DNA of 64,000 nucleotides from Escherichia coli (lineage in GTDB: Bacteria > Pseudomonadota > Gammaproteobacteria > Enterobacterales > Enterobacteriaceae): assembly GCF_003790525.1 (NCBI RefSeq), contig NZ_CP033635.1. One strand, given 5' to 3'. Each line of letters starts with the position of its first letter. Position 1 is the first letter of the stretch. The notes beneath the pieces were generated by a model. It was not told the DNA's origin, did not search any database, and saw only the letters and a program-made list of their open reading frames with translations. Of this stretch, positions 42,864 to 60,366 are shown piece by piece. Position numbers and translations under genes: made by a program.

Positions 42864-43110
42864 GTTTAGCTGCAATATATTAGTAAAGTTTATTACTGAG
42901 TTTGCGAATAATAAAAAAAACAGTATATAAAATATCTCGATATTATTTTATTTATATTCATGCGTTGCATATGAAAGTTTATGCACCACAGCAAATATCT
43001 CTCCATTCTTAGTGATCTACCTCACCTTTTAAACGCGCTTGCCGAATTTTGTTATTTACTCTGACGAAATATTGTCACGATACACGAAAGTTTTTCACAG
43101 GCGGCGACTC

Positions 43111-43446
43111 ATGGATAAAGAACGCATCATTCAGGAATTTGTGCCCGGTAAACAGGTCACACTGGCGCATCTCATCGCGCATCCCGGCGAGGAACTGGCG
43201 AAGAAAATCGGCGTTCCGGATGCGGGCGCAATTGGCATTATGACGCTAACTCCCGGAGAAACGGCGATGATCGCCGGTGATTTAGCGCTGAAAGCTGCCG
43301 ATGTGCATATCGGTTTTCTCGACCGTTTTAGCGGCGCGCTGGTGATTTATGGCTCGGTGGGTGCAGTAGAAGAAGCGTTATCACAAACCGTCAGTGGTTT
43401 AGGTCGCTTATTAAATTATACGCTTTGTGAAATGACCAAAAGTTAA
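43111..43446 (+). CDS. eutS: Ethanolamine-utilisation microcompartment shell protein (BMC domain)
   Basis: Track ORF 43039-43446; the ATG at 43111 ([32 protein letters not shown]) gives 111 aa. Confidence 0.85.
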
Positions 43447-43458
43447 TACGAGGCATTC

Positions 43459-43938
43459 ATGAAACGAATTGCGTTTGTGGGTACCGTCGGGGCAGGAAAA
43501 ACAACGTTATTTAATGCGTTGCAGGGGAATTATACCCTCGCCAGAAAAACACAGGCCGTGGAATTTAATGATAAGGGCGATATTGATACGCCGGGTGAAT
43601 ATTTTAGCCATCCCCGCTGGTATCACGCCTTAATTACCACGCTACAGGATGTGGACATGCTGATCTATGTCCACGGCGCGAATGACCCGGAAAGTCGGTT
43701 GCCTGCCGGGTTGCTGGATATTGGCGTCAGCAAACGGCAAATCGCCGTCATCAGTAAAACGGACATGCCAGATGCTGACGTCGCCGCAACGCGAAAGTTA
43801 TTGCTTGAGACGGGCTTCGAAGAGCCGATTTTCGAGCTAAACAGCCACGACCCGCAAAGCGTGCAGCAACTGGTGGATTATCTGGCATCTCTCACCAAAC
43901 AGGAGGAAGCAGGTGAAAAAACTCATCACAGCGAATGA
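43459..43938 (+). CDS. eutP: Ethanolamine-utilisation P-loop protein (acetate kinase-like)
   Basis: 159-aa ORF with Walker A GTVGAGKTT. Confidence 0.9.
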   Translation: MKRIAFVGTVGAGKTTLFNALQGNYTLARKTQAVEFNDKGDIDTPGEYFSHPRWYHALITTLQDVDMLIYVHGANDPESRLPAGLLDIGVSKRQIAVISKTDMPDADVAATRKLLLETGFEEPIFELNSHDPQSVQQLVDYLASLTKQEEAGEKTHHSE

Positions 43939-44614
43939 TATTCGTGAAGCACACGCGCGCGGCGAACTGGCAATGTCCGTGGTTCTGCGCGCCAGCATTA
44001 TTACCCCGGAAGCTCGTGAAGTGGCTGATCTGTTGGGTTTTACCATCACCGAATGTGATGAATCGACTGCGGTAACGACGTCCGTTCCCGCCAGCGTGCC
44101 AGCCGATAAAACCGAAAGCCAGCGCATCCGCGAAACCATCATCGCCCAGCTACCGGAAGGCCAGTTTACCGAAAGCCTGGTCGCGCAGCTGATGGAAAAA
44201 GTGATGAAGGAAAAACAGTCACTGGAGCAGGGTGCAATGCAGCCGAGTTTCAAATCGGTGACCGGCAAAGGCGGCATCAAAGTGATTGATGGCAGCAGCG
44301 TCAAGTTTGGTCGTTTCGATGGCGCGGAACCGCACTGCGTAGGCTTGACTGATCTCGTGACCGGAGACGACGGCAGCAGTATGGCCGCTGGTTTCATGCA
44401 GTGGGAGAACGCCTTCTTTCCGTGGACCCTGAACTACGACGAAATCGACATGGTGCTGGAAGGGGAACTGCATGTTCGCCACGAAGGCGAAACTATGATC
44501 GCCAAAGCGGGCGATGTGATGTTTATCCCGAAAGGCTCCAGTATCGAATTTGGTACGACATCCAGCGTGAAATTCCTGTATGTCGCCTGGCCGGCTAACT
44601 GGCAATCCCTATGA
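43913..44614 (+). CDS. eutQ: Ethanolamine-utilisation cupin-domain protein
   Basis: 233-aa ORF; overlaps the eutP 3' end by 26 nt. Confidence 0.9.
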   Translation: MKKLITANDIREAHARGELAMSVVLRASIITPEAREVADLLGFTITECDESTAVTTSVPASVPADKTESQRIRETIIAQLPEGQFTESLVAQLMEKVMKEKQSLEQGAMQPSFKSVTGKGGIKVIDGSSVKFGRFDGAEPHCVGLTDLVTGDDGSSMAAGFMQWENAFFPWTLNYDEIDMVLEGELHVRHEGETMIAKAGDVMFIPKGSSIEFGTTSSVKFLYVAWPANWQSL

Positions 44615-45414
44615 AAGATTTCATCACCGAAGCATGGCTAAGAGCGAACCATACGCTCAGCGAAGGCGCAGAGATCCATCTCCCTGCGGACAGTCGCCTG
44701 ACGCCCTCTGCCCGGGAGTTACTGGAAAGCCGCCATCTGCGCATCAAGTTTATTGACGAGCAGGGCCGCCTGTTTGTTGACGATGAACAGCAGCAGCCGC
44801 AGCCCGTTCATGGGCTGACCAGTAGCGATGAACATCCGCAGGCGTGCTGCGAACTGTGCCGCCAGCCGGTGGCAAAAAAGCCGGATACGCTGACTCACCT
44901 GTCGGCGGAAAAAATGGTTGCCAAAAGCGATCCGCGCCTGGCTTTTCGCGCTGTTCTCGACAGCACCATTGCGCTGGCAGTGTGGCTGCAAATTGAACTG
45001 GCGGAACCGTGGCAGCCGTGGCTGGCGGATATCCGTTCGCGTCTTGGCAACATTATGCGTGCCGATGCGCTGGGGGAACCGCTGGCCTGCCAGGCGATTG
45101 TCGGGCTTTCTGACGAAGATCTGCATCGGCTTTCTCACCAGCCGCTGCGTTATCTCGACCACGATCATCTGGTGCCGGAAGCCAGCCACGGGCGCGATGC
45201 GGCGTTGCTAAATCTGCTACGCACCAAAGTGCGGGAAACCGAAACCGTAGCGGCGCAGGTCTTTATCACCCGCAGCTTTGAAGTATTACGCCCGGACATC
45301 TTGCAGGCGCTGAACCGCCTTTCCAGCACGGTCTACGTGATGATGATCCTGAGCGTAACGAAGCAGCCGCTAACGGTGAAGCAGATCCAACAACGACTGG
45401 GGGAAACGCAATGA
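44611..45414 (+). CDS. eutT: Ethanolamine-utilisation cob(I)alamin adenosyltransferase
   Basis: 267-aa ORF; ATGA overlap with eutQ. Confidence 0.9.
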
Positions 45415-46427
45415 TTATTGAACGTTGTCGTGAACTGGCGTTGCGAGCGCCCGCCAGAGTGGTTTTTCCGGATGCGTTAGATCAGCGTGTGCTGAAAGCT
45501 GCGCAATATTTACATCAACAAGGTCTGGCAACGCCCATTCTGGTCGCTAATCCGTTTGAACTTCGTCAGTTTGCGCTCAGTCATGGCGTAGCGATGGACG
45601 GGCTACAGGTGATTGATCCGCATGGCAACCTCGCAATGCGGGAAGAATTTGCTCATCGCTGGCTGGCCCGCGCGGGCGAAAAAACGCCGCCGGATGCGCT
45701 GGAAAAACTCACCGAACCGCTGATGTTCGCCGCCGCAATGGTCAGCGCCGGTAAAGCGGATGTCTGTATCGCGGGCAATCTCTCTTCCACGGCGAATGTG
45801 CTGCGTGCCGGATTACGCATTATTGGCTTGCAGCCAGGCTGTAAAACGCTCTCATCCATTTTCCTGATGCTGCCACAGTACAGCGGTCCGGCGTTGGGTT
45901 TTGCCGATTGCAGCGTGGTGCCACAGCCGACGGCGGCGCAGTTGGCGGATATCGCGCTTGCCAGCGCCGAAACCTGGCGCGCCATCACCGGAGAAGAACC
46001 GCGCGTGGCGATGCTGTCGTTTTCCAGCAACGGTAGTGCCCGTCACCCCTGCGTTGCCAACGTGCAGCAGGCGACAGAAATCGTCCGTGAGCGCGCACCA
46101 AAGCTGGTTGTCGATGGCGAGTTGCAGTTTGACGCCGCCTTCGTGCCGGAAGTGGCGGCGCAAAAAGCGCCTGCCAGCCCGCTACAAGGCAAGGCCAATG
46201 TGATGGTTTTTCCGTCGCTGGAAGCCGGAAATATTGGCTACAAAATCGCACAACGACTTGGCGGATATCGTGCCGTCGGGCCATTGATACAAGGACTTGC
46301 CGCGCCGATGCACGATCTCTCTCGTGGTTGTAGCGTGCAGGAAATTATCGAACTGGCGCTGGTGGCAGCTGTGCCGCGTCAGACAGAAGTGAACCGCGAA
46401 AGCAGTTTACAAACACTGGTTGAATGA
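45411..46427 (+). CDS. eutD: Ethanolamine-utilisation phosphotransacetylase
   Basis: 338-aa ORF, PTA-like; ATGA overlap with eutT. Confidence 0.9.
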
Positions 46428-46465
46428 ACGGTCCCGTTCTGGACCCTGATAAAGAGGAAAGCACA

Positions 46466-46759
46466 ATGGAAGCATTAGGAATGATCGAAACCCGGGGCCT
46501 GGTTGCACTGATTGAGGCTTCTGACGCGATGGTTAAAGCTGCGCGCGTCAAGCTGGTTGGTGTTAAGCAGATTGGCGGCGGCCTGTGTACTGCCATGGTT
46601 CGTGGTGATGTTGCAGCCTGTAAAGCCGCGACCGATGCAGGTGCCGCAGCGGCACAGCGTATCGGCGAGCTGGTATCTGTACACGTTATCCCGCGTCCGC
46701 ACGGCGACCTGGAAGAAGTGTTCCCGATCGGCCTGAAAGGCGATAGCAGCAACCTGTAA
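46466..46759 (+). CDS. eutM: Major BMC shell protein (hexamer)
   Basis: Track ORF 46424-46759; the ATG at 46466 ([28 protein letters not shown]) has an AAGAGGAAA RBS; 97 aa. Confidence 0.9.
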
Positions 46760-46865
46760 TCACCCTGTGTGACGTCGATTCGGGCGTCACGCTCTCTCCT
46801 TTTTCATTTTACCTTCTGCGGAGGGTAGGGGGAGCTTTTACCTGAAATACGCCACGGAGGCGGGT

Positions 46866-47153
46866 ATGAAACTGGCAGTCGTCACTGGACAAATTGTTTG
46901 TACCGTACGCCATCACGGACTGGCGCATGACAAATTGCTGATGGTGGAAATGATTGATCCACAAGGTAATCCTGACGGGCAATGCGCTGTCGCCATCGAC
47001 AATATTGGCGCGGGAACCGGGGAGTGGGTGTTGCTGGTGAGTGGCAGTTCCGCCCGCCAGGCGCATAAAAGCGAAACGTCACCGGTCGATCTGTGCGTGA
47101 TTGGCATCGTCGATGAGGTGGTGTCTGGCGGTCAGGTCATTTTCCACAAATAA
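46866..47153 (+). CDS. eutN: BMC vertex (pentamer) protein
   Basis: 95-aa ORF (MKLAVVTGQIVCTVRH). Confidence 0.9.
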   Translation: MKLAVVTGQIVCTVRHHGLAHDKLLMVEMIDPQGNPDGQCAVAIDNIGAGTGEWVLLVSGSSARQAHKSETSPVDLCVIGIVDEVVSGGQVIFHK

Positions 47154-47164
47154 GGCAGAACATC

Positions 47165-48568
47165 ATGAATCAACAGGATATTGAACAGGTGGTGAAAGCG
47201 GTACTGCTGAAAATGCAAAGCAGTGACACGCCGCCCGCCGCCGTTCATGAGATGGGCGTTTTCGCGTCCCTGGATGACGCCGTTGCGGCAGCCAAAGTCG
47301 CCCAGCAAGGGTTAAAAAGCGTGGCAATGCGCCAGTTAGCCATTGCTGCCATTCGTGAGGCAGGCGAAAAACACGCCAGAGATTTAGCGGAACTTGCCGT
47401 CAGTGAAACCGGCATGGGGCGCGTTGAAGATAAATTTGCCAAAAACGTCGCTCAGGCGCGCGGCACACCAGGCGTTGAGTGCCTCTCACCACAGGTGCTG
47501 ACCGGTGACAACGGCCTGACCCTGATTGAAAACGCGCCCTGGGGCGTGGTGGCTTCGGTGACGCCTTCCACTAACCCGGCGGCAACCGTAATTAACAACG
47601 CCATCAGCCTGATTGCCGCGGGCAACAGCGTCATTTTTGCCCCGCATCCGGCGGCGAAAAAAGTCTCCCAGCGGGCGATTACGCTGCTCAACCAGGCGAT
47701 TGTTGCCGCAGGCGGGCCGGAAAACTTACTGGTTACTGTGGCCAATCCGGATATCGAAACCGCGCAACGTTTGTTCAAGTTCCCGGGTATCGGCCTGCTG
47801 GTGGTGACCGGCGGCGAAGCGGTAGTGGAAGCGGCGCGTAAACACACCAATAAACGTCTGATTGCCGCAGGCGCTGGCAACCCGCCGGTAGTGGTGGATG
47901 AAACCGCCGACCTCGCCCGTGCTGCTCAGTCCATCGTCAAAGGCGCGTCTTTCGATAACAACATCATTTGTGCCGACGAAAAGGTACTGATTGTTGTTGA
48001 TAGCGTAGCCGATGAACTGATGCGTCTGATGGAAGGCCAGCATGCGGTGAAACTGACCGCAGAGCAGGCGCAGCAACTGCAATCGGTGTTGCTGAAAAAT
48101 ATCGACGAGTGCGGAAAAGGCACCGTCAGCCGTGACTGGGTTGGTCGCGATGCGGCGAAAATCGCGGCGGCAATCGGCCTTAAAGTTCCGGAACAAACGC
48201 GACTGCTGTTTGTAGAAACCACCGCAGAACATCCGTTTGCCGTGACCGAACTGATGATGCCGGTGCTGCCCGTCGTGCGCGTCGCCAACGTGGCGGATGC
48301 CATTGCGCTGGCGGTGAAACTGGAAGGCGGTTGCCACCACACGGCGGCAATGCACTCGCGCAATATCGAGAACATGAACCAGATGGCGAATGCCATTGAT
48401 ACCAGCATTTTCGTTAAGAACGGACCGTGCATTGCCGGGCTGGGGCTGGGCGGGGAAGGCTGGACCACCATGACCATCACCACGCCAACCGGTGAAGGGG
48501 TAACCAGCGCGCGGACGTTTGTCCGTCTGCGTCGCTGTGTATTAGTCGATGCGTTTCGCATTGTTTAA
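47165..48568 (+). CDS. eutE: CoA-acylating acetaldehyde dehydrogenase
   Basis: 467-aa aldehyde-dehydrogenase-family ORF with N-terminal BMC-targeting-like segment. Confidence 0.9.
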   Translation: MNQQDIEQVVKAVLLKMQSSDTPPAAVHEMGVFASLDDAVAAAKVAQQGLKSVAMRQLAIAAIREAGEKHARDLAELAVSETGMGRVEDKFAKNVAQARGTPGVECLSPQVLTGDNGLTLIENAPWGVVASVTPSTNPAATVINNAISLIAAGNSVIFAPHPAAKKVSQRAITLLNQAIVAAGGPENLLVTVANPDIETAQRLFKFPGIGLLVVTGGEAVVEAARKHTNKRLIAAGAGNPPVVVDETADLARAAQSIVKGASFDNNIICADEKVLIVVDSVADELMRLMEGQHAVKLTAEQAQQLQSVLLKNIDECGKGTVSRDWVGRDAAKIAAAIGLKVPEQTRLLFVETTAEHPFAVTELMMPVLPVVRVANVADAIALAVKLEGGCHHTAAMHSRNIENMNQMANAIDTSIFVKNGPCIAGLGLGGEGWTTMTITTPTGEGVTSARTFVRLRRCVLVDAFRIV

Positions 48569-48578
48569 GGAGTAACCG

Positions 48579-49415
48579 ATGGCGCACGATGAACAATGGC
48601 TCACCCCACGTCTGCAAACGGCGGCAACGCTGTGTAACCAGACGCCCGCCGCGACGGAATCTCCGCTGTGGCTGGGGGTGGATCTGGGCACCTGCGATGT
48701 GGTGTCGATGGTTGTCGACCGCGACGGTCTGCCGGTGGCGGTATGCCTCGACTGGGCCGATGTGGTCCGCGACGGCATCGTCTGGGATTTCTTCGGTGCG
48801 GTCACCATTGTTCGTCGCCATCTCGACACCCTCGAGCAGCAATTCGGTCGCCGTTTTAGCCATGCGGCGACCTCTTTTCCTCCAGGTACGGACCCGCGTA
48901 TTTCCATCAACGTGCTGGAGTCTGCCGGACTGGAAGTGAGCCATGTACTGGATGAGCCAACCGCAGTCGCGGATCTGCTGCAACTGGACAACGCCGGTGT
49001 AGTGGATATCGGCGGTGGCACTACTGGTATTGCCATCGTGAAAAAGGGCAAGGTGACGTACTCGGCGGATGAAGCGACCGGCGGACATCACATCTCTCTG
49101 ACTCTCGCCGGAAATCGTCGTATTTCGCTGGAAGAGGCAGAGCAGTACAAGCGCGGTCACGGTGAAGAGATTTGGCCCGCGGTGAAACCGGTGTACGAAA
49201 AAATGGCGGACATTGTCGCCCGGCATATTGAAGGGCAGGGCATTACGGATTTATGGCTGGCGGGCGGCTCTTGTATGCAACCGGGCGTGGCGGAACTGTT
49301 TCGCAAACAATTTCCGGCGTTACAGGTGCATTTACCGCAGCACAGTTTGTTTATGACCCCGCTGGCGATCGCCAGTAGCGGGCGAGAGAAAGCGGAGGGG
49401 CTATATGCAAAATGA
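48579..49415 (+). CDS. eutJ: Ethanolamine-utilisation chaperonin-like protein (actin/Hsp70 fold)
   Basis: 278-aa ORF. Confidence 0.9.
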   Translation: MAHDEQWLTPRLQTAATLCNQTPAATESPLWLGVDLGTCDVVSMVVDRDGLPVAVCLDWADVVRDGIVWDFFGAVTIVRRHLDTLEQQFGRRFSHAATSFPPGTDPRISINVLESAGLEVSHVLDEPTAVADLLQLDNAGVVDIGGGTTGIAIVKKGKVTYSADEATGGHHISLTLAGNRRISLEEAEQYKRGHGEEIWPAVKPVYEKMADIVARHIEGQGITDLWLAGGSCMQPGVAELFRKQFPALQVHLPQHSLFMTPLAIASSGREKAEGLYAK

Positions 49416-50592
49416 ATTGCAGACCGCGCTCTTTCAGGCGTTCGATACCCTGAATCTGCAACGGGTAAAAACATTTAGCGTTCCACCGGTGACGCTTTGC
49501 GGTCCGGGCGCGGTGAGCAGTTGTGGGCAGCAAGCGCAAACGCGTGGGCTGAAACATCTGTTCGTGATGGCAGACAGCTTTTTGCATCAGGCAGGGATGA
49601 CCGCCGGGCTGACACGTAGCCTGGCCGTTAAAGGTATCGCCATGACGCTCTGGCCATGTCCGGTGGGCGAACCATGCATCACCGACGTGTGTGCAGCCGT
49701 GGCGCAGTTGCGTGAATCAGGCTGTGACGGGGTGATTGCGTTTGGCGGCGGCTCGGTGCTGGATGCAGCAAAAGCCGTGGCGTTGCTGGTGACGAACCCG
49801 GATAGCACGCTGGCAGAGATGTCAGAAACCAGCGTTCTGCAACCGCGCCTGCCGTTGATTGCCATTCCGACTACCGCCGGAACCGGCTCTGAAACCACCA
49901 ACGTAACGGTGATTATCGATGCGGTGAGCGGGCGTAAGCAGGTGTTAGCCCATGCCTCGCTGATGCCGGATGTGGCGATTCTCGACGCCGCATTGACCGA
50001 AGGTGTGCCGTCGCATGTCACGGCGATGACTGGCATTGATGCGTTAACCCATGCCATTGAAGCGTACAGCGCGCTGAACGCCACACCATTTACCGACAGC
50101 CTGGCGATTGGCGCCATTGCGATGATTGGTCAATCGCTGCCGAAAGCGGTGGGCTACGGTCACGACCTTGCCGCGCGCGAGAGCATGTTGCTGGCTTCAT
50201 GTATGGCGGGAATGGCGTTTTCCAGTGCGGGGCTTGGGTTGTGCCACGCGATGGCGCATCAGCCAGGGGCGGCGCTGCATATTCCGCACGGTCTGGCGAA
50301 CGCTATGTTGCTGCCAACGGTAATGGAATTTAACCGGATGGTTTGTCGTGATCGGTTTAGTCAGATTGGCCGGGCGCTGAGAACTAAAAAATCCGACGAT
50401 CGTGACGCTATTAACGCGGTAAGTGAGCTGATTGCGGAAGTCGGGATTGGTAAACGACTGGGCGATATTGGTGCGACATCTGCGCATTACGGCGCATGGG
50501 CGCAGGCCGCGCTGGAAGATATTTGTCTGCGCAGCAACCCGCGTACCGCCAGCCTGGAGCAGATTATTGGTCTGTATGCTGCGGCGCAATAA
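49405..50592 (+). CDS. eutG: Iron-containing alcohol dehydrogenase
   Basis: 395-aa Fe-ADH-family ORF; 11-nt overlap with eutJ. Confidence 0.9.
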   Translation: MQNELQTALFQAFDTLNLQRVKTFSVPPVTLCGPGAVSSCGQQAQTRGLKHLFVMADSFLHQAGMTAGLTRSLAVKGIAMTLWPCPVGEPCITDVCAAVAQLRESGCDGVIAFGGGSVLDAAKAVALLVTNPDSTLAEMSETSVLQPRLPLIAIPTTAGTGSETTNVTVIIDAVSGRKQVLAHASLMPDVAILDAALTEGVPSHVTAMTGIDALTHAIEAYSALNATPFTDSLAIGAIAMIGQSLPKAVGYGHDLAARESMLLASCMAGMAFSSAGLGLCHAMAHQPGAALHIPHGLANAMLLPTVMEFNRMVCRDRFSQIGRALRTKKSDDRDAINAVSELIAEVGIGKRLGDIGATSAHYGAWAQAALEDICLRSNPRTASLEQIIGLYAAAQ

Positions 50593-50610
50593 AAGTGTAC
50601 GGACAGTCCC

Positions 50611-50648
50611 CTCGCCCCTTTGGGGAGAGGGTTAGGGTGAGGGGAACA
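50611..50648. repeat. G-rich 38-bp intergenic repeat, copy 2 (CTCGCCCCTTTGGGGAGAGGGTTAGGGTGAGGGGAACA)
   Basis: 36/38 identical to 37218-37255; followed by partial inverted copies (ccctcacccc at 50674-50683, gtgaggg at 50701-50707) in the 169-bp eutG-eutH spacer. Confidence 0.6.
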
Positions 50649-50761
50649 GAGTCGCTCCGGTGCAAACAATTACCCTCACCCCGGTCCCTCGGCTTCCAGA
50701 GTGAGGGAAAAACCCACTTTCAGCATTGGCAATAAATAACAACTAACAGGGAGTAAAGGCG

Positions 50762-51988
50762 ATGGGAATTAACGAAATCATCATGTACATCATGATGTTC
50801 TTTATGCTGATAGCTGCCGTAGACAGGATCCTGTCGCAGTTCGGCGGTTCTGCTCGTTTCCTCGGTAAGTTCGGTAAAAGTATCGAAGGATCCGGCAGTC
50901 AGTTCGAAGAAGGCTTTATGGCAATGGGCGCTTTGGGCCTGGCGATGGTTGGTATGACCGCGCTGGCACCTGTTCTGGCCCACGTACTCGGACCGGTGAT
51001 TATCCCGGTTTACGAAATGCTCGGCGCAAACCCGTCAATGTTCGCCGGAACACTGCTGGCGTGCGATATGGGCGGCTTCTTCCTCGCCAAAGAGTTGGCG
51101 GGCGGCGACGTAGCAGCGTGGCTATACTCTGGATTAATTCTCGGGTCGATGATGGGGCCAACGATTGTGTTTTCCATTCCGGTGGCGCTCGGCATTATCG
51201 AACCTTCTGACCGTCGTTATCTGGCGCTCGGCGTGCTGGCGGGCATTGTGACCATTCCGATTGGCTGTATTGCCGGTGGTCTGGTGGCTATGTACTCCGG
51301 TGTGCAGATCAACGGTCAGCCAGTGGAATTCACCTTTGCGCTGATCCTGATGAACATGATCCCGGTACTTATCGTTGCGGTGCTGGTGGCGCTGGGGCTG
51401 AAATTCATCCCGGAAAAAATGATCAACGGCTTCCAGATCTTCGCCAAATTCCTCGTTGCATTGATCACCCTCGGTCTTGCCGCTGCGGTAGTGAAATTCC
51501 TCCTTGGCTGGGAACTGATCCCGGGCCTTGATCCTATCTTTATGGCCCCTGGCGATAAACCCGGTGAAGTGATGCGCGCCATTGAAGTTATCGGCTCGAT
51601 CTCCTGCGTTCTGTTAGGGGCGTATCCGATGGTGCTGCTGCTGACTCGCTGGTTTGAAAAACCGCTGATGAGTGTCGGTAAGGTGCTGAATATGAACAAT
51701 ATAGCGGCAGCCGGCATGGTGGCAACGCTTGCCAACAACATCCCGATGTTTGGCATGATGAAGCAGATGGATACCCGCGGCAAAGTCATCAACTGTGCCT
51801 TCGCCGTTTCCGCTGCTTTCGCCCTGGGCGACCATTTAGGCTTCGCGGCTGCCAACATGAACGCCATGATCTTCCCGATGATTGTCGGCAAGCTGATCGG
51901 CGGCGTCACGGCGATTGGCGTGGCGATGATGCTGGTACCTAAAGAAGACGCGAGCGCGGCTAAAACCGAAGCGGAGGCGCAATCGTGA
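50762..51988 (+). CDS. eutH: Ethanolamine permease/facilitator
   Basis: 408-aa polytopic membrane ORF. Confidence 0.9.
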   Translation: MGINEIIMYIMMFFMLIAAVDRILSQFGGSARFLGKFGKSIEGSGSQFEEGFMAMGALGLAMVGMTALAPVLAHVLGPVIIPVYEMLGANPSMFAGTLLACDMGGFFLAKELAGGDVAAWLYSGLILGSMMGPTIVFSIPVALGIIEPSDRRYLALGVLAGIVTIPIGCIAGGLVAMYSGVQINGQPVEFTFALILMNMIPVLIVAVLVALGLKFIPEKMINGFQIFAKFLVALITLGLAAAVVKFLLGWELIPGLDPIFMAPGDKPGEVMRAIEVIGSISCVLLGAYPMVLLLTRWFEKPLMSVGKVLNMNNIAAAGMVATLANNIPMFGMMKQMDTRGKVINCAFAVSAAFALGDHLGFAAANMNAMIFPMIVGKLIGGVTAIGVAMMLVPKEDASAAKTEAEAQS

Positions 51989-53388
51989 ACACTCGCCAGC
52001 TACTGAGCGTCGGTATCGATATCGGCACCACCACCACCCAGGTGATTTTCTCCCACCTGGAGCTGGTTAACCGTGCGGCGGTGTCGCAGGTGCCGCGCTA
52101 CGAATTCATCAAACGCGAAATTAGCTGGCAAAGCCCGGTGTTCTTTACCCCTGTCGATAAACAGGGTGGTTTAAAAGAAGCGGAACTGAAAACCTTAATC
52201 CTGGATCAATATCAGGCTGCGGGCATTGCGCCGGAAAGTGTTGATTCTGGTGCCATCATCATCACCGGTGAAAGCGCGAAAACCCGCAACGCTCGCCCGG
52301 CGGTGATGACGCTCTCCCAGTCGCTGGGCGATTTTGTCGTCGCCAGCGCCGGGCCGCATCTCGAATCCGTGATCGCCGGTCACGGTGCCGGGGCGCAAAC
52401 TCTTTCTGAACAACGGCTGTGTCGGGTACTGAATATCGATATCGGCGGTGGCACTGCGAACTACGCCCTGTTCGATGCCGGAAAAATCAGCGGCACCGCC
52501 TGCCTCAACGTCGGCGGTCGCCTGCTGGAAACCGACAGCCAGGGGCGCGTGGTTTACGCTCATAAACCGGGGCAGATGATTGTGGATGAGTGCTTCGGCG
52601 CAGGCACTGACGCCCGTTCGCTGACCGGCGCGCAGCTGGTGCAGGTTACCCGCCGGATGGCAGAGCTGATTGTCGAAGTGATTGACGGAACGCTTTCGCC
52701 GCTCGCGCAGGCATTGATGCAAACCGGTTTGCTGCCCGTAGGTGTTACGCCCGAAATCATTACGCTTTCTGGCGGCGTTGGCGAATGTTATCGCCACCAG
52801 CCCGCCGACCCGTTCTGTTTTGCCGATATTGGCCCGCTTCTGGCAACGGCGCTGCATGACCATCCGCGCCTGCGTGAGATGAACGTGCAGTTTCCGGCGC
52901 AAACCGTGCGCGCCACGGTGATTGGCGCGGGTGCACATACCCTTTCGCTCTCTGGCAGCACAATCTGGCTGGAGGGCGTACAACTGCCGCTGCGCAACTT
53001 GCCGGTGGCGATCCCAATTGATGAAAAGGATCTGGTGAGTGCCTGGCAACAGGCGCTGATTCAGCTGGATCTTGATCCTAAAACTGACGCGTACGTGCTG
53101 GCGCTTCCCGCCTCGCTGCCTGTGCGTTACGCCGCGGTACTGACGGTCATCAACGCGTTGGTCGATTTCGTCGCGCGTTTTCCGAATCCGCATCCCCTGC
53201 TGGTGGTGGCCGGGCAGGACTTTGGTAAAGCTCTGGGCATGTTGTTGCGCCCACAGCTACAACAACTCCCGTTGGCAGTCATTGACGAAGTGATTGTCCG
53301 CGCGGGGGACTATATCGACATTGGTACGCCTCTTTTTGGCGGATCGGTTGTGCCGGTGACGGTGAAATCACTCGCATTTCCTTCCTGA
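51985..53388 (+). CDS. eutA: Ethanolamine ammonia-lyase reactivating factor
   Basis: 467-aa ORF; ATGA overlap with eutH. Confidence 0.9.
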   Translation: MNTRQLLSVGIDIGTTTTQVIFSHLELVNRAAVSQVPRYEFIKREISWQSPVFFTPVDKQGGLKEAELKTLILDQYQAAGIAPESVDSGAIIITGESAKTRNARPAVMTLSQSLGDFVVASAGPHLESVIAGHGAGAQTLSEQRLCRVLNIDIGGGTANYALFDAGKISGTACLNVGGRLLETDSQGRVVYAHKPGQMIVDECFGAGTDARSLTGAQLVQVTRRMAELIVEVIDGTLSPLAQALMQTGLLPVGVTPEIITLSGGVGECYRHQPADPFCFADIGPLLATALHDHPRLREMNVQFPAQTVRATVIGAGAHTLSLSGSTIWLEGVQLPLRNLPVAIPIDEKDLVSAWQQALIQLDLDPKTDAYVLALPASLPVRYAAVLTVINALVDFVARFPNPHPLLVVAGQDFGKALGMLLRPQLQQLPLAVIDEVIVRAGDYIDIGTPLFGGSVVPVTVKSLAFPS

Positions 53389-53399
53389 GGGAACGACTT

Positions 53400-54761
53400 A
53401 TGAAACTAAAGACCACATTGTTCGGCAATGTATATCAGTTTAAGGATGTAAAAGAGGTGCTGGCTAAAGCCAACGAACTGCGTTCGGGGGATGTGCTGGC
53501 GGGCGTTGCTGCGGCAAGCTCACAGGAGCGCGTGGCGGCAAAGCAGGTGTTGTCGGAAATGACCGTAGCGGACATCCGCAATAATCCGGTGATTGCCTAT
53601 GAAGATGACTGCGTGACGCGGCTGATTCAGGACGATGTTAACGAAACGGCCTACAACCAGATTAAAAACTGGAGCATCAGCGAACTGCGTGAGTATGTGC
53701 TGAGCGATGAAACCAGCGTGGACGACATTGCCTTTACCCGCAAAGGGCTGACCTCGGAAGTGGTAGCGGCGGTAGCGAAGATTTGCTCCAACGCGGACCT
53801 GATCTACGGCGCGAAGAAAATGCCGGTGATCAAAAAGGCCAATACCACCATCGGTATTCCGGGCACCTTTAGCGCCCGCTTGCAGCCAAACGATACCCGT
53901 GACGATGTGCAAAGTATCGCCGCGCAAATCTACGAAGGGCTTTCCTTCGGGGTGGGCGATGCGGTGATCGGCGTTAACCCGGTGACTGACGACGTGGAAA
54001 ACTTAAGCCGCGTGTTGGATACCATCTATGGCGTGATCGACAAATTCAACATCCCAACTCAGGGCTGCGTACTGGCGCACGTCACCACCCAGATCGAAGC
54101 GATTCGTCGCGGCGCACCGGGCGGGCTGATTTTCCAGAGTATTTGCGGCAGCGAAAAAGGGCTGAAAGAGTTTGGCGTGGAGCTGGCGATGCTCGACGAA
54201 GCGCGCGCAGTGGGTGCAGAGTTTAACCGTATCGCCGGGGAAAACTGCCTCTACTTCGAAACCGGACAAGGTTCGGCGCTGTCCGCTGGCGCTAACTTCG
54301 GCGCTGACCAGGTGACGATGGAAGCGCGTAACTATGGGCTGGCGCGTCATTACGATCCGTTTATCGTCAACACCGTGGTCGGTTTTATTGGGCCGGAGTA
54401 TCTCTACAACGACCGCCAGATTATCCGCGCGGGCTTAGAAGATCACTTTATGGGCAAGCTGAGCGGCATCTCTATGGGCTGTGACTGCTGCTACACCAAC
54501 CACGCTGACGCTGACCAGAACCTCAACGAAAACCTGATGATCCTGCTCGCCACCGCAGGCTGTAACTACATCATGGGGATGCCGCTGGGTGATGACATCA
54601 TGCTCAACTACCAGACTACGGCCTTCCACGACACCGCCACTGTGCGTCAGTTACTCAACCTGCGCCCGTCACCGGAGTTTGAACGCTGGCTGGAAAGCAT
54701 GGGCATTATGGCAAACGGTCGCCTGACCAAACGGGCGGGCGATCCGTCACTGTTCTTCTGA
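53400..54761 (+). CDS. eutB: Ethanolamine ammonia-lyase large subunit
   Basis: 453-aa ORF starting 11 bp after the eutA stop. Confidence 0.95.
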   Translation: MKLKTTLFGNVYQFKDVKEVLAKANELRSGDVLAGVAAASSQERVAAKQVLSEMTVADIRNNPVIAYEDDCVTRLIQDDVNETAYNQIKNWSISELREYVLSDETSVDDIAFTRKGLTSEVVAAVAKICSNADLIYGAKKMPVIKKANTTIGIPGTFSARLQPNDTRDDVQSIAAQIYEGLSFGVGDAVIGVNPVTDDVENLSRVLDTIYGVIDKFNIPTQGCVLAHVTTQIEAIRRGAPGGLIFQSICGSEKGLKEFGVELAMLDEARAVGAEFNRIAGENCLYFETGQGSALSAGANFGADQVTMEARNYGLARHYDPFIVNTVVGFIGPEYLYNDRQIIRAGLEDHFMGKLSGISMGCDCCYTNHADADQNLNENLMILLATAGCNYIMGMPLGDDIMLNYQTTAFHDTATVRQLLNLRPSPEFERWLESMGIMANGRLTKRAGDPSLFF

Positions 54762-54781
54762 TGACGCGGAGATAACACATC

Positions 54782-55669
54782 ATGGATCAAAAACAGATTG
54801 AAGAAATTGTACGCAGCGTGATGGCGTCAATGGGACAAGCGGCCCCCGCGCCGTCAGAAGCAAAGTGCGCCACCACCACCTGTACGACACCAGTGACCTC
54901 GGAAAGCTGCGCGCTGGATTTAGGTTCTGCGGAAGCAAAAGCGTGGATTGGTGTGGAAAACCCGCATCGCGCAGACGTATTAACAGAACTGCGTCGCAGC
55001 ACCGTGGCCCGCGTTTGTACCGGTCGTGCCGGTCCGCGTCCGCGTACCCAGGCGTTGCTGCGTTTCCTGGCCGATCACTCTCGTTCGAAAGATACCGTAC
55101 TGAAAGAAGTGCCGGAAGAGTGGGTGAAAGCGCAGGGCTTGCTGGAAGTCCGCTCTGAAATTAGCGACAAAAATCTCTACCTGACTCGTCCGGATATGGG
55201 CCGCCGCCTGTGTGCAGAAGCTGTTGAAGCGCTGAAAGCGCAGTGTGTTGCCAATCCGGACGTGCAGGTCGTTATTTCTGATGGCCTGTCAACTGATGCG
55301 ATCACCGTGAACTACGAAGAGATCCTGCCACCGCTGATGGCGGGCCTGAAACAGGCCGGGCTGAAAGTCGGTACGCCATTCTTTGTTCGTTATGGTCGCG
55401 TGAAGATTGAAGATCAGATCGGTGAGATCCTCGGCGCGAAAGTGGTGATCCTGCTGGTGGGGGAACGCCCGGGATTAGGGCAGTCAGAAAGCCTCTCCTG
55501 CTACGCCGTTTACTCGCCGCGTATTGCAACCACCGTTGAGGCCGATCGTACCTGTATCTCTAACATTCACCAGGGCGGCACGCCGCCGGTTGAAGCCGCA
55601 GCCGTCATTGTGGATTTGGCGAAACGTATGCTGGAGCAGAAAGCATCCGGCATCAACATGACCCGATAA
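54782..55669 (+). CDS. eutC: Ethanolamine ammonia-lyase small subunit
   Basis: 295-aa ORF. Confidence 0.95.
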
Positions 55670-55678
55670 GGAGGCATC

Positions 55679-56338
55679 ATGCCAGCTTTAGATTTGATTC
55701 GACCGTCGGTAACCGCCATGCGGGTGATTGCCTCCGTTAACGCCGAATTTGCACGTGAACTGAAATTGCCGCCGCATATTCGTAGCCTCGGGCTGATTTC
55801 TGCTGATTCAGATGACGTCACCTACATTGCGGCTGACGAAGCGACCAAGCAGGCGATGGTCGAAGTGGTATATGGTCGCTCGCTGTATGCGGGCGCTGCA
55901 CACGGCCCGTCACCGACTGCCGGTGAGGTGCTGATTATGCTGGGTGGGCCAAACCCGGCGGAAGTGCGTGCTGGTCTGGATGCGATGGTTGCGCATATTG
56001 AAAATGGCGCTGCTTTCCAGTGGGCTAATGACGCAGAAAATACAGCCTTCCTGGCACATGTCGTTTCGCGTACCGGTTCTTATCTCTCATCAACCGCCGG
56101 GATCACGCCTGGCGATCCGATGGCGTATCTGGTGGCACCGCCGCTGGAAGCGACCTACGGCATTGATGCAGCGTTGAAATCTGCCGACGTGCAGCTGGTG
56201 ACCTATGTCCCGCCACCGTCTGAAACCAACTACTCGGCAGCATTTTTAACCGGTAGCCAGGCCGCGTGTAAAGCAGCCTGTAACGCCTTTACCGATGCAG
56301 TGCTGGAAATCGCGCGTAATCCAATCCAGCGTGCGTAA
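55679..56338 (+). CDS. eutL: BMC shell protein (tandem-BMC trimer)
   Basis: 219-aa ORF. Confidence 0.9.
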
Positions 56339-56350
56339 CGGAGGTTGCCG

Positions 56351-56851
56351 ATGATCAATGCACTGGGATTGCTGGAAGTGGACGGCATGGTCGCCGCGAT
56401 AGATGCAGCTGATGCCATACTCAAAGCAGCTAACGTTCGTCTGCTCAGTCATGAAGTGCTTGACCCTGGTCGCCTAACGCTGGTGGTGGAAGGCGATCTG
56501 GCGGCGTGTCGTGCGGCGCTGGACGCAGGTTGTGCTGCCGCGATGCGTACCGGGCGTGTCATCAGCCGTAAGGAGATCGGTCGGCCAGACGATGACACCC
56601 AGTGGCTGGTTACTGGCTTTAACCGCCAGCCGAAGCAACCCGTAAAGGAACCCGACGCGCCAGTTATCGTCGCGGAATCTGCTGACGAGTTGTTGGCGCT
56701 GTTAACATCAGTACGTCAGGGAATGACGGCAGGAGAAGTGGCTGCCCACTTTGGCTGGCCGCTGGAAAAAGCCAGAAATGCGCTCGAACAGCTCTTTTCT
56801 GCCGGGACGTTACGTAAACGCAGTAGTCGTTACCGTCTCAAGCCCCATTAA
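56351..56851 (+). CDS. eutK: BMC shell protein with C-terminal nucleic-acid-binding-like domain
   Basis: Track ORF starts at TTG 56345; the ATG at 56351 (MINALGLLEVDGMVAAIDAADA) has a GGAGG RBS; 166 aa. Confidence 0.85.
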   Translation: MINALGLLEVDGMVAAIDAADAILKAANVRLLSHEVLDPGRLTLVVEGDLAACRAALDAGCAAAMRTGRVISRKEIGRPDDDTQWLVTGFNRQPKQPVKEPDAPVIVAESADELLALLTSVRQGMTAGEVAAHFGWPLEKARNALEQLFSAGTLRKRSSRYRLKPH

Positions 56852-56896
56852 CCTGTCGGAGGTGCCGGGTGTCCTACAACACCCGGCATTAACATC

Positions 56897-57949
56897 ATGA
56901 AAAAGACCCGTACAGCCAATTTGCACCATCTTTATCATGAACCCTTACCCGAAAACCTGAAGCTCACGCCGAAGGTCGAAGTGGATAATGTTCATCAACG
57001 ACAGACAACGGATGTCTATGAACATGCTTTGACAATTACCGCCTGGCAGCAGATTTACGATCAGCTGCATCCGGGCAAGTTTCATGGTGAATTTACGGAA
57101 ATTCTACTCGATGATATTCAGGTTTTTCGTGAATACACTGGTCTGGCGCTGCGTCAGTCGTGCCTGGTCTGGCCGAACTCGTTCTGGTTTGGCATTCCGG
57201 CGACGCGCGGTGAGCAGGGATTTATCGGTTCGCAATGTCTGGGAAGCGCAGAAATTGCGACGCGCCCGGGTGGAACCGAGTTTGAATTAAGTACGCCGGA
57301 CGATTACACGATCCTGGGCGTAGTGCTTTCTGAAGATGTCATCACTCGTCAGGCTAACTTTTTGCATAATCCGGATCGGGTATTACATATGCTGCGTAGC
57401 CAGTCGGCGTTGGAAGTGAAAGAGCAGCATAAAGCCGCGCTGTGGGGCTTTGTCCAACAGGCGCTGGCGACATTTTGCGAGAACCCGGAAAATCTTCATC
57501 AGCCTGCTGTGCGTAAAGTGCTGGGGGATAATTTGCTCATGGCGATGGGGGCGATGCTGGAAGAAGCGCAGCCAATGGTGACGGCGGAAAGCATCAGTCA
57601 TCAGAGTTACCGTCGATTGCTTTCCCGCGCCCGTGAATATGTGCTGGAAAACATGTCTGAACCGGTAACGGTGTTGGAGTTGTGCAATCAATTGCATGTC
57701 AGCCGCCGCACGCTACAAAACGCGTTTCACGCTATTTTAGGCATTGGCCCAAACGCGTGGCTGAAACGCATTCGCCTGAACGCCGTACGCCGCGAACTGA
57801 TAAGCCCGTGGTCGCAAAGCACAACGGTAAAAGACGCCGCCATGCAGTGGGGATTCTGGCATCTGGGGCAATTTGCCACGGATTACCAGCAGCTGTTTGC
57901 CGAGAAGCCGTCACTGACGCTGCATCAGCGGATGCGGGAGTGGGGGTGA
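56897..57949 (+). CDS. eutR: AraC-family transcriptional activator of the eut operon
   Basis: 350-aa ORF with C-terminal AraC-type HTH. Confidence 0.9.
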
Positions 57950-57954
57950 GGGAG

Positions 57955-58857
<903 letters not shown>

Positions 58858-59727
58858 TTACCGCTTTCTCGAGTGTGCTTTCTGGTTGTCAAACCAGTGG
58901 AAATAACTGATCACGCCTTCGGCAATCGCTGTGGCGATTTTCTGGCGAAACGCTGCAGTGCCTAACAGCCGCTCTTCTTCCGGGTTGGTGATAAACGAGG
59001 TTTCCACCAGCACCGACGGAACCGACGGCGATTTCAACACCACAAACGCGGCTTGTTCGGTGTTGCGGCTGTGCAGTTTATGCACCGGCTTAATCTTTTT
59101 CAGAATATGCGAGCCGAGCGTCAGGCTGTTTTTAATAGTATCGGTTTGCACCAGATCAAACAGCACTTGCTGCAATAGGTGATCCTTGTCAGTCGCCTTT
59201 TTACCGGCAACTTCATCGGCGCGGTTTTCGCGTTCAGACAGGTATTTCGCCATTGCGCTACTTGCGCCGCGGTTAGAGAGAGCAAATACCGAAGCACCGG
59301 CAGCTTTCGGGTTAGTAAAGCCGTCGGCATGAATTGACATAAACAGGTCTGCGCCGTGTTTATGGGCGATTTCAACGCGATCGTACAGCGGGATAAACGT
59401 ATCGCCAGAACGCGTTAAACGCGCATCAATGCCATGATTACGCAAAATGGAACGGACGTTTTTAGCAATCGCCAGCACCACATGTTTTTCTTTCGAACCG
59501 TTGCGTCCGATCGCTCCGGTATCAATCCCGCCGTGGCCTGGATCGAGAACAACGACACGTTTGCCGCCGTTTTTTTTTGCTTTCGGCTTGCTGTGTCCGT
59601 TGCTGGTTTTTAAAGGTTCTTCTTTGGCGATGGCTTGCGACATTCCTGACAACGTCAGGGCAGCCAATCCGGCTTTCAGCACCTGGCGGCGCGAAGTGAG
59701 TGTTTTTAGTGGTTTAAAAGTGCTCAT
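58858..59727 (-). CDS. amiA: N-acetylmuramoyl-L-alanine amidase, Tat-exported
   Basis: 289-aa ORF with Tat-type signal (SRRQVLKAGLAALTLSG); 3 bp upstream of hemF. Confidence 0.95.
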   Translation of the reverse strand: MSTFKPLKTLTSRRQVLKAGLAALTLSGMSQAIAKEEPLKTSNGHSKPKAKKNGGKRVVVLDPGHGGIDTGAIGRNGSKEKHVVLAIAKNVRSILRNHGIDARLTRSGDTFIPLYDRVEIAHKHGADLFMSIHADGFTNPKAAGASVFALSNRGASSAMAKYLSERENRADEVAGKKATDKDHLLQQVLFDLVQTDTIKNSLTLGSHILKKIKPVHKLHSRNTEQAAFVVLKSPSVPSVLVETSFITNPEEERLLGTAAFRQKIATAIAEGVISYFHWFDNQKAHSRKR

Positions 59728-59940
59728 ACGGCCTGAGTTGTAATAATAAAGTTCCAGATGTTATATCGTATCGCGTAATCCGTTACGACGGTTTGCTGTT
59801 GAGAATTGTTTTACTTTTCATTTCAATAGTTGACAACTCCCCATTATGCCACTTTTTCAACCGATTTTCGTCAGATATTGGCTAATTCGACCGTTCACGC
59901 CATAATCAGCCTTTTAACCCGCAAAAAGGTAACGAATACC

Positions 59941-60366
59941 ATGGAGATACGCGTATTTCGCCAGGAAGATTTCGAAGAGGTCATCACCCTTTGGGAGCGT
60001 TGCGACTTGCTGCGTCCGTGGAACGATCCGGAAATGGACATCGAGCGTAAGATGAACCATGACGTCAGTTTGTTTCTGGTCGCTGAGGTAAACGGTGAAG
60101 TGGTCGGAACGGTGATGGGCGGTTATGACGGGCATCGCGGGTCTGCTTATTATCTTGGCGTGCATCCAGAGTTTCGTGGGCGTGGGATTGCTAATGCGTT
60201 GCTTAATCGGTTGGAGAAAAAGCTGATTGCTCGCGGCTGTCCGAAAATTCAGATCAACGTGCCGGAAGATAACGACATGGTGCTCGGAATGTATGAACGC
60301 CTGGGATATGAACACGCCGACGTGCTGAGTCTGGGTAAGCGTTTGATTGAAGATGAAGAGTACTGA
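59941..60366 (+). CDS. ypeA: GNAT-family N-acetyltransferase
   Basis: Track ORF 59830-60366; the ATG at 59941 ([27 protein letters not shown]) gives 141 aa. Confidence 0.85.

What the first reader, a model, noticed from the sequence alone, without database searches (positions are those of the whole stretch)
57947..57957. Convergent eutR and hemF stop codons separated by only 5 bp
eutR (plus strand) ends at 57949 and hemF (minus strand) ends at 57955, with no room for separate terminators. The 3' UTRs of the two transcripts must therefore overlap, which allows antisense interference between the eut regulator and the amiA-hemF transcript.
Basis: seen in the sequence. Interest (0 to 1): 0.2.

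Follow-up and report, generated by a model that had tools for sequence, protein, structure and literature searches.

The report
Tight convergent eutR–hemF gene junction
The ethanolamine regulator gene eutR and the haem gene hemF do end head-to-head only 5 bases apart, but this is the standard annotated E. coli layout, a very common kind of junction, and published data already show hemF read-through being stopped by the Rho factor inside eutR, so it is ordinary.

Summary
The eutR stop (TGA, 57947-57949, + strand) and the hemF stop (TAA, 57957-57955, - strand) are separated by 5 bp (GGGAG). RefSeq annotates the same stops and the same gap in K-12 MG1655 and in strain SC516, which is 100% identical to the window here. 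A 76-bp probe across the junction matches contiguously in 5318 of 5426 complete E. coli genomes.

The junction is not unusual. In 200 kb of K-12 annotation, 9 of 29 convergent gene pairs are 5 bp or less apart or overlap.

The junction holds no intrinsic terminator, no significant hairpin and no Rfam RNA. Citrobacter, Klebsiella and Salmonella carry 54-150 bp of REP palindromes at the same spot; Escherichia has none.

The reading is partly supported. Adams et al. 2021 list a bicyclomycin-sensitive Rho termination region on the hemF strand, antisense to eutR, 516 nt past the hemF stop (about window 57439). A C-rich, G-poor stretch lies just upstream of it. So hemF-strand transcription most likely runs about 0.5 kb antisense into eutR before Rho stops it.

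Read-through from eutR into hemF is only inferred, and antisense interference is untested. Verdict: already known, low interest.

The parts
56897..57949 (+). eutR coding sequence (350 aa, AraC-type activator, last gene of the eut operon); stop TGA at 57947-57949
   Evidence: ORF list; NCBIfam NF007522 full length at 788 bits; RefSeq annotation of the identical strain SC516 and of K-12
57950..57954 (.). 5-bp spacer GGGAG between the two stop codons
   Evidence: Sequence. The length is 5 in E. coli and in three other Escherichia lineages, but the sequence varies (GGGAG, ATAAA, GGTAA). One strain has a 9-bp duplication that gives a 14-bp gap
57955..58854 (-). hemF coding sequence (299 aa, oxygen-dependent coproporphyrinogen oxidase); stop TAA at 57957-57955
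   Evidence: ORF list; NCBIfam NF003727 at 473 bits; RefSeq annotation
58858..59727 (-). amiA coding sequence. Its stop lies 3 bp upstream of the hemF ATG, so the two genes are presumably co-transcribed
   Evidence: ORF list; NCBIfam NF007652; annotation. Co-transcription is inferred from the 3-bp spacing
57943..57975 (.). Imperfect inverted repeat across the junction, formed by the two gene ends (TGGGGGTGA versus TTACACCCA plus AGGGA/TCCCT). It is not a terminator
   Evidence: Fold -15.1 kcal/mol (z -1.2) on + and -10.4 kcal/mol (z +0.3) on -; no U tract; the inner stem is lost in lineage L005
57475..57614 (-). C-rich, G-poor stretch in the RNA made by reading past the hemF stop (341-480 nt downstream). 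It is a candidate Rho loading (rut) region
   Evidence: C:G ratio 1.6-2.46 in 80-nt windows. It lies just upstream of the published Rho termination coordinate. Assigning it as rut is inference
57414..57439 (-). Window equivalent of the published Rho termination region coordinate (K-12 2554640 = window 57439). A weak 5-bp hairpin plus T-rich tail sits immediately downstream of it
   Evidence: Adams et al. 2021 Supplementary file 2; coordinate mapping through the gap-free alignment A2; hairpin from the consensus scan. The published coordinate has coarse resolution because it rests on 800-nt windows
58650..58809 (+). Strongest C-rich, G-poor stretch in RNA that would be made by reading past the eutR stop (701-860 nt downstream, antisense to the 5' part of hemF). 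It is a candidate Rho loading region for eut read-through
   Evidence: C:G ratio 1.7-2.3. This is prediction only; no experimental data were found for this strand

Best explanation
This is an ordinary tight tail-to-tail junction between two unrelated transcription units: the 17-gene eut operon ending in eutR, and amiA-hemF. Escherichia has no hairpin element here, neither an intrinsic terminator nor a REP. Polymerases leaving either gene therefore continue into the other gene on its antisense strand. The RNA there is untranslated, so Rho loads on C-rich, G-poor stretches and terminates a few hundred nucleotides in. For the hemF strand this is documented in K-12: a bicyclomycin-sensitive termination region lies about 516 nt past the hemF stop, antisense to the C-terminal half of eutR. 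For the eutR strand the same mechanism is inferred. The 3' parts of the two transcripts therefore overlap, but the overlap is most likely a tolerated by-product kept small by Rho and by low expression, not a dedicated regulatory device.
For: Shown here:
- The stops are 5 bp apart.
- No terminator-like site lies near the junction, there is no significant structure, and there is no Rfam family.
- A C:G ratio of up to 2.46 occurs 361-440 nt after the hemF stop on the hemF strand.
- Tight or overlapping convergent pairs are common in K-12, 9 of 29 in the sample.

Published:
- Adams et al. 2021 Supplementary file 2 lists position 2554640, + strand, antisense to eutR. Read counts are 78 upstream and 18 downstream without BCM, and 102 and 106 with BCM. 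The Rho score is 4.50 and p = 8.9e-8.
- The same table lists similar regions for other convergent pairs in my sample: ampE into aroP, lpd into yacH, guaC into hofC, and yfeH into ypeB-ligA.
- 'Antisense' is the largest class of Rho termination regions, 51.5% of 1078.
- Neither hemF nor eutR appears in that paper's Term-seq 3'-end tables. This fits Rho-terminated, exonuclease-trimmed ends rather than hairpin-protected ones.

Inferred: the eutR-strand read-through and its Rho termination.
Against: The published Rho coordinate comes from 800-nt windows with low read counts in K-12 grown in LB, not from this strain. It cannot distinguish hemF read-through from an independent antisense start inside eutR. 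No data were found for the eutR strand. In K-12 the eut operon is split by the CPZ-55 prophage and is not induced in LB, so the strongly induced state has not been observed. The absence of a regulatory effect has not been shown either.
Confidence: 0.72

Rival explanations
1. Functional antisense coupling (excludon-like). Induced eut transcription reading into hemF/amiA lowers their expression. Alternatively, constitutive amiA-hemF read-through lowers basal EutR and so sets the threshold of the EutR positive-feedback loop. The mechanism would be polymerase collision or cleavage of double-stranded RNA.
For: Transcript overlap on the hemF strand is supported by published data and covers about half of eutR. 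The window strain has an intact 17-gene eut operon that ends exactly at this junction. The 5-bp length is kept across Escherichia lineages. Relatives insulate the same junction with REP palindromes.
Against: No expression data link the two units (searches found none). The spacer sequence and both stop codons drift, and strains with a 14-bp gap or multi-kb insertions at the site exist, so the junction itself is not under visible constraint. About 30% of convergent pairs share this layout. Read counts at the locus are low (78 per 800 nt). Rho already truncates the antisense RNA.
Confidence: 0.12
2. Collision-driven bidirectional termination. Converging polymerases meet at the junction and release each other, giving defined overlapping 3' ends as described for 'overlapping bidirectional terminators'.
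For: The pair is convergent, and a weak imperfect inverted repeat spans the junction. The mechanism has been described for hundreds of E. coli convergent pairs (bioRxiv 10.1101/2022.10.23.513370).
Against: That model requires a stem-loop to position the collisions and works best for highly expressed pairs. Here the structure is no better than in shuffled sequence, expression is low, no Term-seq 3' end is listed for either gene, and hemF-strand read-through is bicyclomycin-sensitive.
Confidence: 0.06
3. The bicyclomycin-sensitive RNA antisense to eutR starts at an independent antisense promoter inside or next to eutR, not from hemF read-through, so hemF mRNA could end near its stop.
For: Pervasive Rho-suppressed antisense transcription initiating inside genes is well documented (cited). 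The 800-nt window method cannot tell the origin of the reads.
Against: No sigma-70-like promoter match was found on that strand between the hemF stop and the Rho coordinate. Nothing in the sequence could end hemF transcripts earlier.
Confidence: 0.1

Closest known systems
Rho-dependent termination of read-through and antisense transcription in E. coli (Peters et al. 2012; Adams et al. 2021, PMC7815308)
   Same: Untranslated RNA beyond a stop codon, a C-rich and G-poor stretch upstream, bicyclomycin-sensitive read-through, and no stable mapped 3' end. This very locus is an entry in the Adams et al. table (2554640 +, antisense to eutR).
   Different: Nothing distinguishes it. It is one of 1078 listed regions, more than half of them antisense to a gene.
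Overlapping bidirectional terminators between convergent genes (Ju et al. 2019; Wang et al., bioRxiv 10.1101/2022.10.23.513370)
   Same: A convergent gene pair whose transcripts overlap at their 3' ends.
   Different: Those elements encode a hairpin in the overlap, give sharp 3' ends and are Rho-independent. Here there is no significant hairpin, no mapped 3' end, and Rho-sensitive read-through on the hemF strand.
REP/BIME palindromes between convergent genes (207 of 704 convergent pairs in MG1655; bioRxiv 10.64898/2026.03.23.713779)
   Same: Citrobacter, Klebsiella and Salmonella arizonae carry 54-150 bp of REP-type palindromes at the orthologous eutR-hemF junction. These are strongly structured on both strands (z -4.2 and -5.0).
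   Different: Escherichia has no REP here, only 5 bp.
Excludon and overlapping-3'-UTR antisense regulation (Listeria, Staphylococcus aureus; recalled from memory, not checked here)
   Same: Neighbouring genes on opposite strands with overlapping transcripts that could affect each other.
   Different: Those cases rest on demonstrated reciprocal expression effects and often RNase III processing. None is known or tested here.

Membership tests
Rho-dependent termination region | Read-through increases when Rho is inhibited (bicyclomycin) | not testable with these tools
   Published for K-12: Rho score 4.50, p = 8.9e-8 at 2554640 +. This strain was not measured; the sequence around the site is near-identical.
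Rho-dependent termination region | C-rich, G-poor (rut-like) RNA upstream of the termination region | tested here: met
   C:G ratio of 2.46 at 361-440 nt after the hemF stop, 75-155 nt upstream of the mapped coordinate.
Rho-dependent termination region | The RNA is untranslated when Rho loads | tested here: inconclusive
   The region lies beyond the hemF stop and antisense to eutR. Only unannotated mechanical ORFs occur on that strand. Translation was not measured.
Intrinsic (hairpin plus U-tract) terminator | G+C-rich stem-loop followed by a U run shortly after the stop codon | tested here: not met
   No terminator-like site within about 500 bp of the junction on either strand. The nearest is a weak 5-bp stem at 57438..57424 on the - strand. 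Folds are no better than shuffles.
Overlapping bidirectional terminator (Ju et al. 2019) | Hairpin-forming overlap between the convergent gene ends | tested here: not met
   Junction fold z -1.2 (+) and +0.3 (-). The inner stem is lost in Escherichia lineage L005.
Overlapping bidirectional terminator (Ju et al. 2019) | Sharp, Rho-independent 3' ends on both strands | not testable with these tools
   There is no hemF or eutR entry in the Term-seq tables of Adams et al., and hemF-strand read-through is bicyclomycin-sensitive. Both argue against membership. The SEnd-seq tables of Ju et al. were not available.
REP/BIME-occupied convergent spacer | Palindromic units of the GCCGGATG...CTTATCCGGCCTAC or GCCTGATG...TTATCAGGCCTAC type in the spacer | tested here: not met
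   The Escherichia spacer is 5 bp. The motifs are present in the Citrobacter, Klebsiella and Salmonella spacers and in the long convergent spacers of K-12.
Excludon / regulatory antisense overlap | Demonstrated reciprocal effect of one transcript on expression of the opposite gene | not testable with these tools
   No paper linking eut and hemF expression was found.

The most novel reading that the evidence does not exclude
In Escherichia, which lacks the REP insulator its relatives carry at this junction, amiA-hemF read-through runs antisense over the HTH-coding half of eutR. This could damp basal EutR and so help set the induction threshold of the autoregulated eut operon. Conversely, full eut induction could lower HemF. 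That would be an Escherichia-specific coupling of ethanolamine use and aerobic haem synthesis.
Probability: 0.1. Interest if true: 0.45.

Novelty: already known. Interest (0 to 1): 0.1.

Why it matters
It matters little as it stands. The gene layout is in every E. coli annotation, and the Rho-terminated antisense read-through over eutR is already a line in a published table. The locus is a clean example of how E. coli handles convergent genes that have no terminator between them. The one mildly useful point is comparative: Escherichia has 5 bp where Citrobacter, Klebsiella and Salmonella have REP palindromes. That gives a natural with/without-insulator pair for testing whether REPs protect convergent neighbours from each other's read-through.

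Tried and rejected
- **Terminator and promoter scan, 56500-60000.** Nothing near the junction, and fewer terminator-like sites than in shuffles.
- **Folding.** 200-nt stretches downstream of each stop and the 43-nt junction in four Escherichia lineages are no better than shuffled sequence.
- **Rfam at E <= 1.** No match.
- **Other 3'-end, Rho or TSS data sets.** Dar & Sorek 2018 has no supplements held. Ju et al. 2019, Peters et al. 2012 and Thomason et al. 2015 are not held. The Yan et al. 2018 supplements mention none of the genes. PMC9023263, PMC11092163 and PMC12259150 have no supplements held.
- **Literature linking hemF and eut expression.** None found. The only relevant hit uses the junction as a neutral insertion site for a reporter.
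- **Is the short gap a derived loss of an ancestral REP?** Unresolved. The REP arrangements differ between Citrobacter, Klebsiella and Salmonella. Pluralibacter (8 bp) and Intestinirhabdus (19 bp) also lack REPs, so either a loss in Escherichia or independent REP gains elsewhere is possible.
- **Is the weak hairpin at 57438..57424 an independent terminator?** Its conservation is explained by eutR coding, so this cannot be judged.

Full report
**Observation**

The window reads ...GAG TGG GGG TGA GGGAG TTA CAC CCA... around 57940-57962. The + strand ORF 56897..57949 (350 aa) ends with TGA at 57947-57949. The - strand ORF ends with TAA at 57957-57955. Five bases (GGGAG, 57950-57954) separate them.

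NCBIfam equivalog models identify the two proteins as full-length EutR (NF007522, 788 bits, 1-350 of 350) and HemF (NF003727, 473 bits, to the last profile position). AmiA lies directly upstream of hemF, 3 bp from its ATG.

The window is 100% identical here to E. coli SC516. RefSeq annotates the same stops in SC516 and in K-12 MG1655, where hemF ends at 2554124 and eutR's low end is 2554130. A 76-bp probe across the junction matches contiguously in 5318 of 5426 complete E. coli genomes, with both genes annotated under it.

**Is it unusual?**

No. I read four 50-kb blocks of the K-12 annotation and listed all 29 CDS-CDS convergent pairs. Their gaps, block by block, are:
- 215, 34, 42, 70, 37, 201, 40, 3, 73
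- -4, -4, 72, 34, 0
- 52, 40, 3, 257, -41, 8, -35, 116
- 38, -4, 42, 188, 239, 5, 148

Nine of the 29 (8 of 28 without the focal pair) are 5 bp or less apart or overlap. In this sample the long gaps (116-257 bp) are the ones that hold REP palindromes.

**What is at the junction**

- The consensus scan finds no terminator-like site near the junction on either strand. The nearest is a weak 5-bp stem with a T-rich tail at 57438..57424 on the - strand.
- Folding 200 nt downstream of each stop gives z-scores of -0.9 and -0.7.
- The two gene ends (…W-G-stop and …W-V-stop) form an imperfect inverted repeat. Its fold is no better than shuffled sequence (-15.1 kcal/mol, z -1.2 on +; -10.4, z +0.3 on -). 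It has no U tract, and it is lost in one Escherichia lineage.
- Rfam has no match at E <= 1.

**Comparison across genera**

A scan of one genome per species with EutR returned 63 loci. hemF lies convergent to eutR in Escherichia, Citrobacter, the Klebsiella oxytoca group, Salmonella arizonae, Pluralibacter, Pseudocitrobacter and Intestinirhabdus. It is not within 3 kb of eutR in Yokenella, Buttiauxella, Hafnia, Morganella, Dickeya, Pectobacterium, Brenneria or Lonsdalea.

Both proteins keep their lengths in nearly all of these loci, so in those loci the stops themselves do not move. What varies is the spacer:

| Group | Spacer between the stops |
|---|---|
| Escherichia lineages (sequence varies: GGGAG, ATAAA, GGTAA; stops drift TGA/TAA) | 5 bp |
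| Pluralibacter MAG | 8 bp |
| Intestinirhabdus | 19 bp |
| Citrobacter, Klebsiella, Salmonella | 54-150 bp |

The long spacers are made of the canonical enterobacterial REP units (GCCGGATG…CTTATCCGGCCTAC and GCCTGATAAGCG…CATCAGGC). The same motifs sit in the long convergent spacers of K-12. They are strongly structured on both strands (Citrobacter L018: z -4.2 and -5.0).

Whether Escherichia lost a REP or the others gained them cannot be settled. The REP arrangements differ between genera, and two other genera, Pluralibacter and Intestinirhabdus, also have short gaps.

**Where the transcripts end**

Adams et al. 2021 (PMC7815308) mapped Rho termination regions in K-12 by DirectRNA-seq with and without bicyclomycin. 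Their Supplementary file 2 lists position 2554640 on the + strand, which is the hemF strand in K-12, classed as antisense to eutR. Reads upstream and downstream are 78 and 18 without the drug, and 102 and 106 with it. The Rho score is 4.50 and p = 8.9e-8 (method).

That position is 516 nt past the hemF stop. Through a gap-free alignment it corresponds to window 57439. On that strand the RNA 341-480 nt past the stop is C-rich and G-poor, with C:G up to 2.46, as expected of a Rho loading region just upstream.

Neither hemF nor eutR appears in that paper's Term-seq 3'-end tables. This fits Rho-terminated ends that are trimmed rather than hairpin-protected.

The same table lists equivalent regions for other convergent pairs in my sample: ampE into aroP, lpd into yacH, guaC into hofC, and yfeH into ypeB-ligA. 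'Antisense' is its largest class, 51.5% of 1078. The hemF case is one of many.

For the eutR strand I found no data. A lacZ transcriptional fusion placed directly after the eutR stop in E. coli 536 was built as a eut-operon transcriptional reporter. If it reports induction as intended, polymerases from the induced operon reach the stop (PMC10710832). What happens beyond it in the native context is inferred. The strongest C-rich stretch on that strand lies 701-860 nt downstream.

**Explanation**

The best-supported reading is an ordinary terminator-less convergent junction. Read-through into the antisense strand of the neighbour is cut short by Rho. This is documented for hemF into eutR and inferred for eutR into hemF.

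The functional suggestion of antisense interference is neither supported nor excluded. Against a dedicated role:
- the layout is common;
- the spacer sequence and stop codons drift;
- read counts are low;
- natural variants exist with a 14-bp gap (9-bp duplication) or with kilobase insertions at the site.

Collision-driven bidirectional termination is unlikely. It needs a positioning hairpin and high expression, and the read-through is bicyclomycin-sensitive. An independent antisense promoter inside eutR cannot be excluded from the coarse published data, although no promoter-like match is present.

**Novelty and score**

The arrangement is annotated in every E. coli genome, and the Rho region antisense to eutR is already published. 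The mechanism class is textbook. Interest is low (0.1).

The only reading with some novelty is this: the absence of a REP insulator in Escherichia might let amiA-hemF read-through tune basal EutR, or let eut induction depress HemF. I put that at about 10%.

Noticed in passing
L066 5551-9410 (E. coli 2017-02-2CC); L006 4060-5843 (E. whittamii); L025, L028, L029: The eutR-hemF junction is occasionally occupied by accessory DNA. One E. coli strain carries a 3.86-kb islet (TPR, SEL1, Tli3-family T6SS immunity, DUF1963 proteins). E. whittamii carries 1.78 kb holding a TacA-type antitoxin (PF08681, E 2.7e-25), a weak GNAT (TacT-like) partner and an unassigned 223-aa ORF. Some Citrobacter and Pseudocitrobacter loci have 425-973 bp here.
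   Followed up: partly
L072 96-109 (E. coli 23CRST009; equivalent to window 57950-57954): A 9-bp tandem duplication (AGTTACACC) at the junction widens the gap to 14 bp without changing either stop. Eight records fall in the 80-90% identity band of the junction probe.
   Followed up: partly
window 57414-57439, - strand: A weak hairpin plus T-rich tail (GCGGCTTTATGCTGC TCTTTCACTT) starts one base after the window equivalent of the published Rho termination coordinate (K-12 2554640). This could be chance (roughly 3% by my estimate) or a hairpin-assisted Rho site. Its conservation is confounded by eutR coding.
   Followed up: partly
window about 43000-57949 (eutS to eutR): The window strain has an intact, uninterrupted 17-gene eut operon. 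K-12 has the CPZ-55 cryptic prophage between eutB and eutA.
   Followed up: partly
window 57941-57963: Both genes end in Trp-X-stop (TGG GGG TGA and TGG GTG TAA), so the two gene ends are themselves an inverted repeat. In Citrobacter the same ends pair around the REP spacer in the predicted fold.
   Followed up: partly
L003 and L035 (MAG 'Citrobacter sp. HRGM_Genome_0066'): One bin holds both an E. coli-type eutR-hemF contig (99% EutR identity, 5-bp gap) and a Citrobacter-type one (54-bp REP spacer). The MAG looks mixed.
   Followed up: no
L059, L060, L061: Contigs of about 410-460 bp in assemblies labelled Bacillus hominis and Prolixibacteraceae encode EutR fragments 95-97% identical to E. 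coli. This is probably contamination.
   Followed up: no
L037 3001-3905 (Escherichia sp. MOD1-EC7003): The eutR match is about 145 bp shorter than elsewhere and splits in tblastn (best segment residues 1-215, early stop). This is probably an internal deletion or pseudogene, while the 5-bp junction is retained.
   Followed up: no
window 57400-58500: Only 26 of 5425 E. coli records are 99% or more identical to this stretch; most are 95-99%. The window therefore comes from a less commonly sequenced lineage (best match SC516, chicken liver, China).
   Followed up: no
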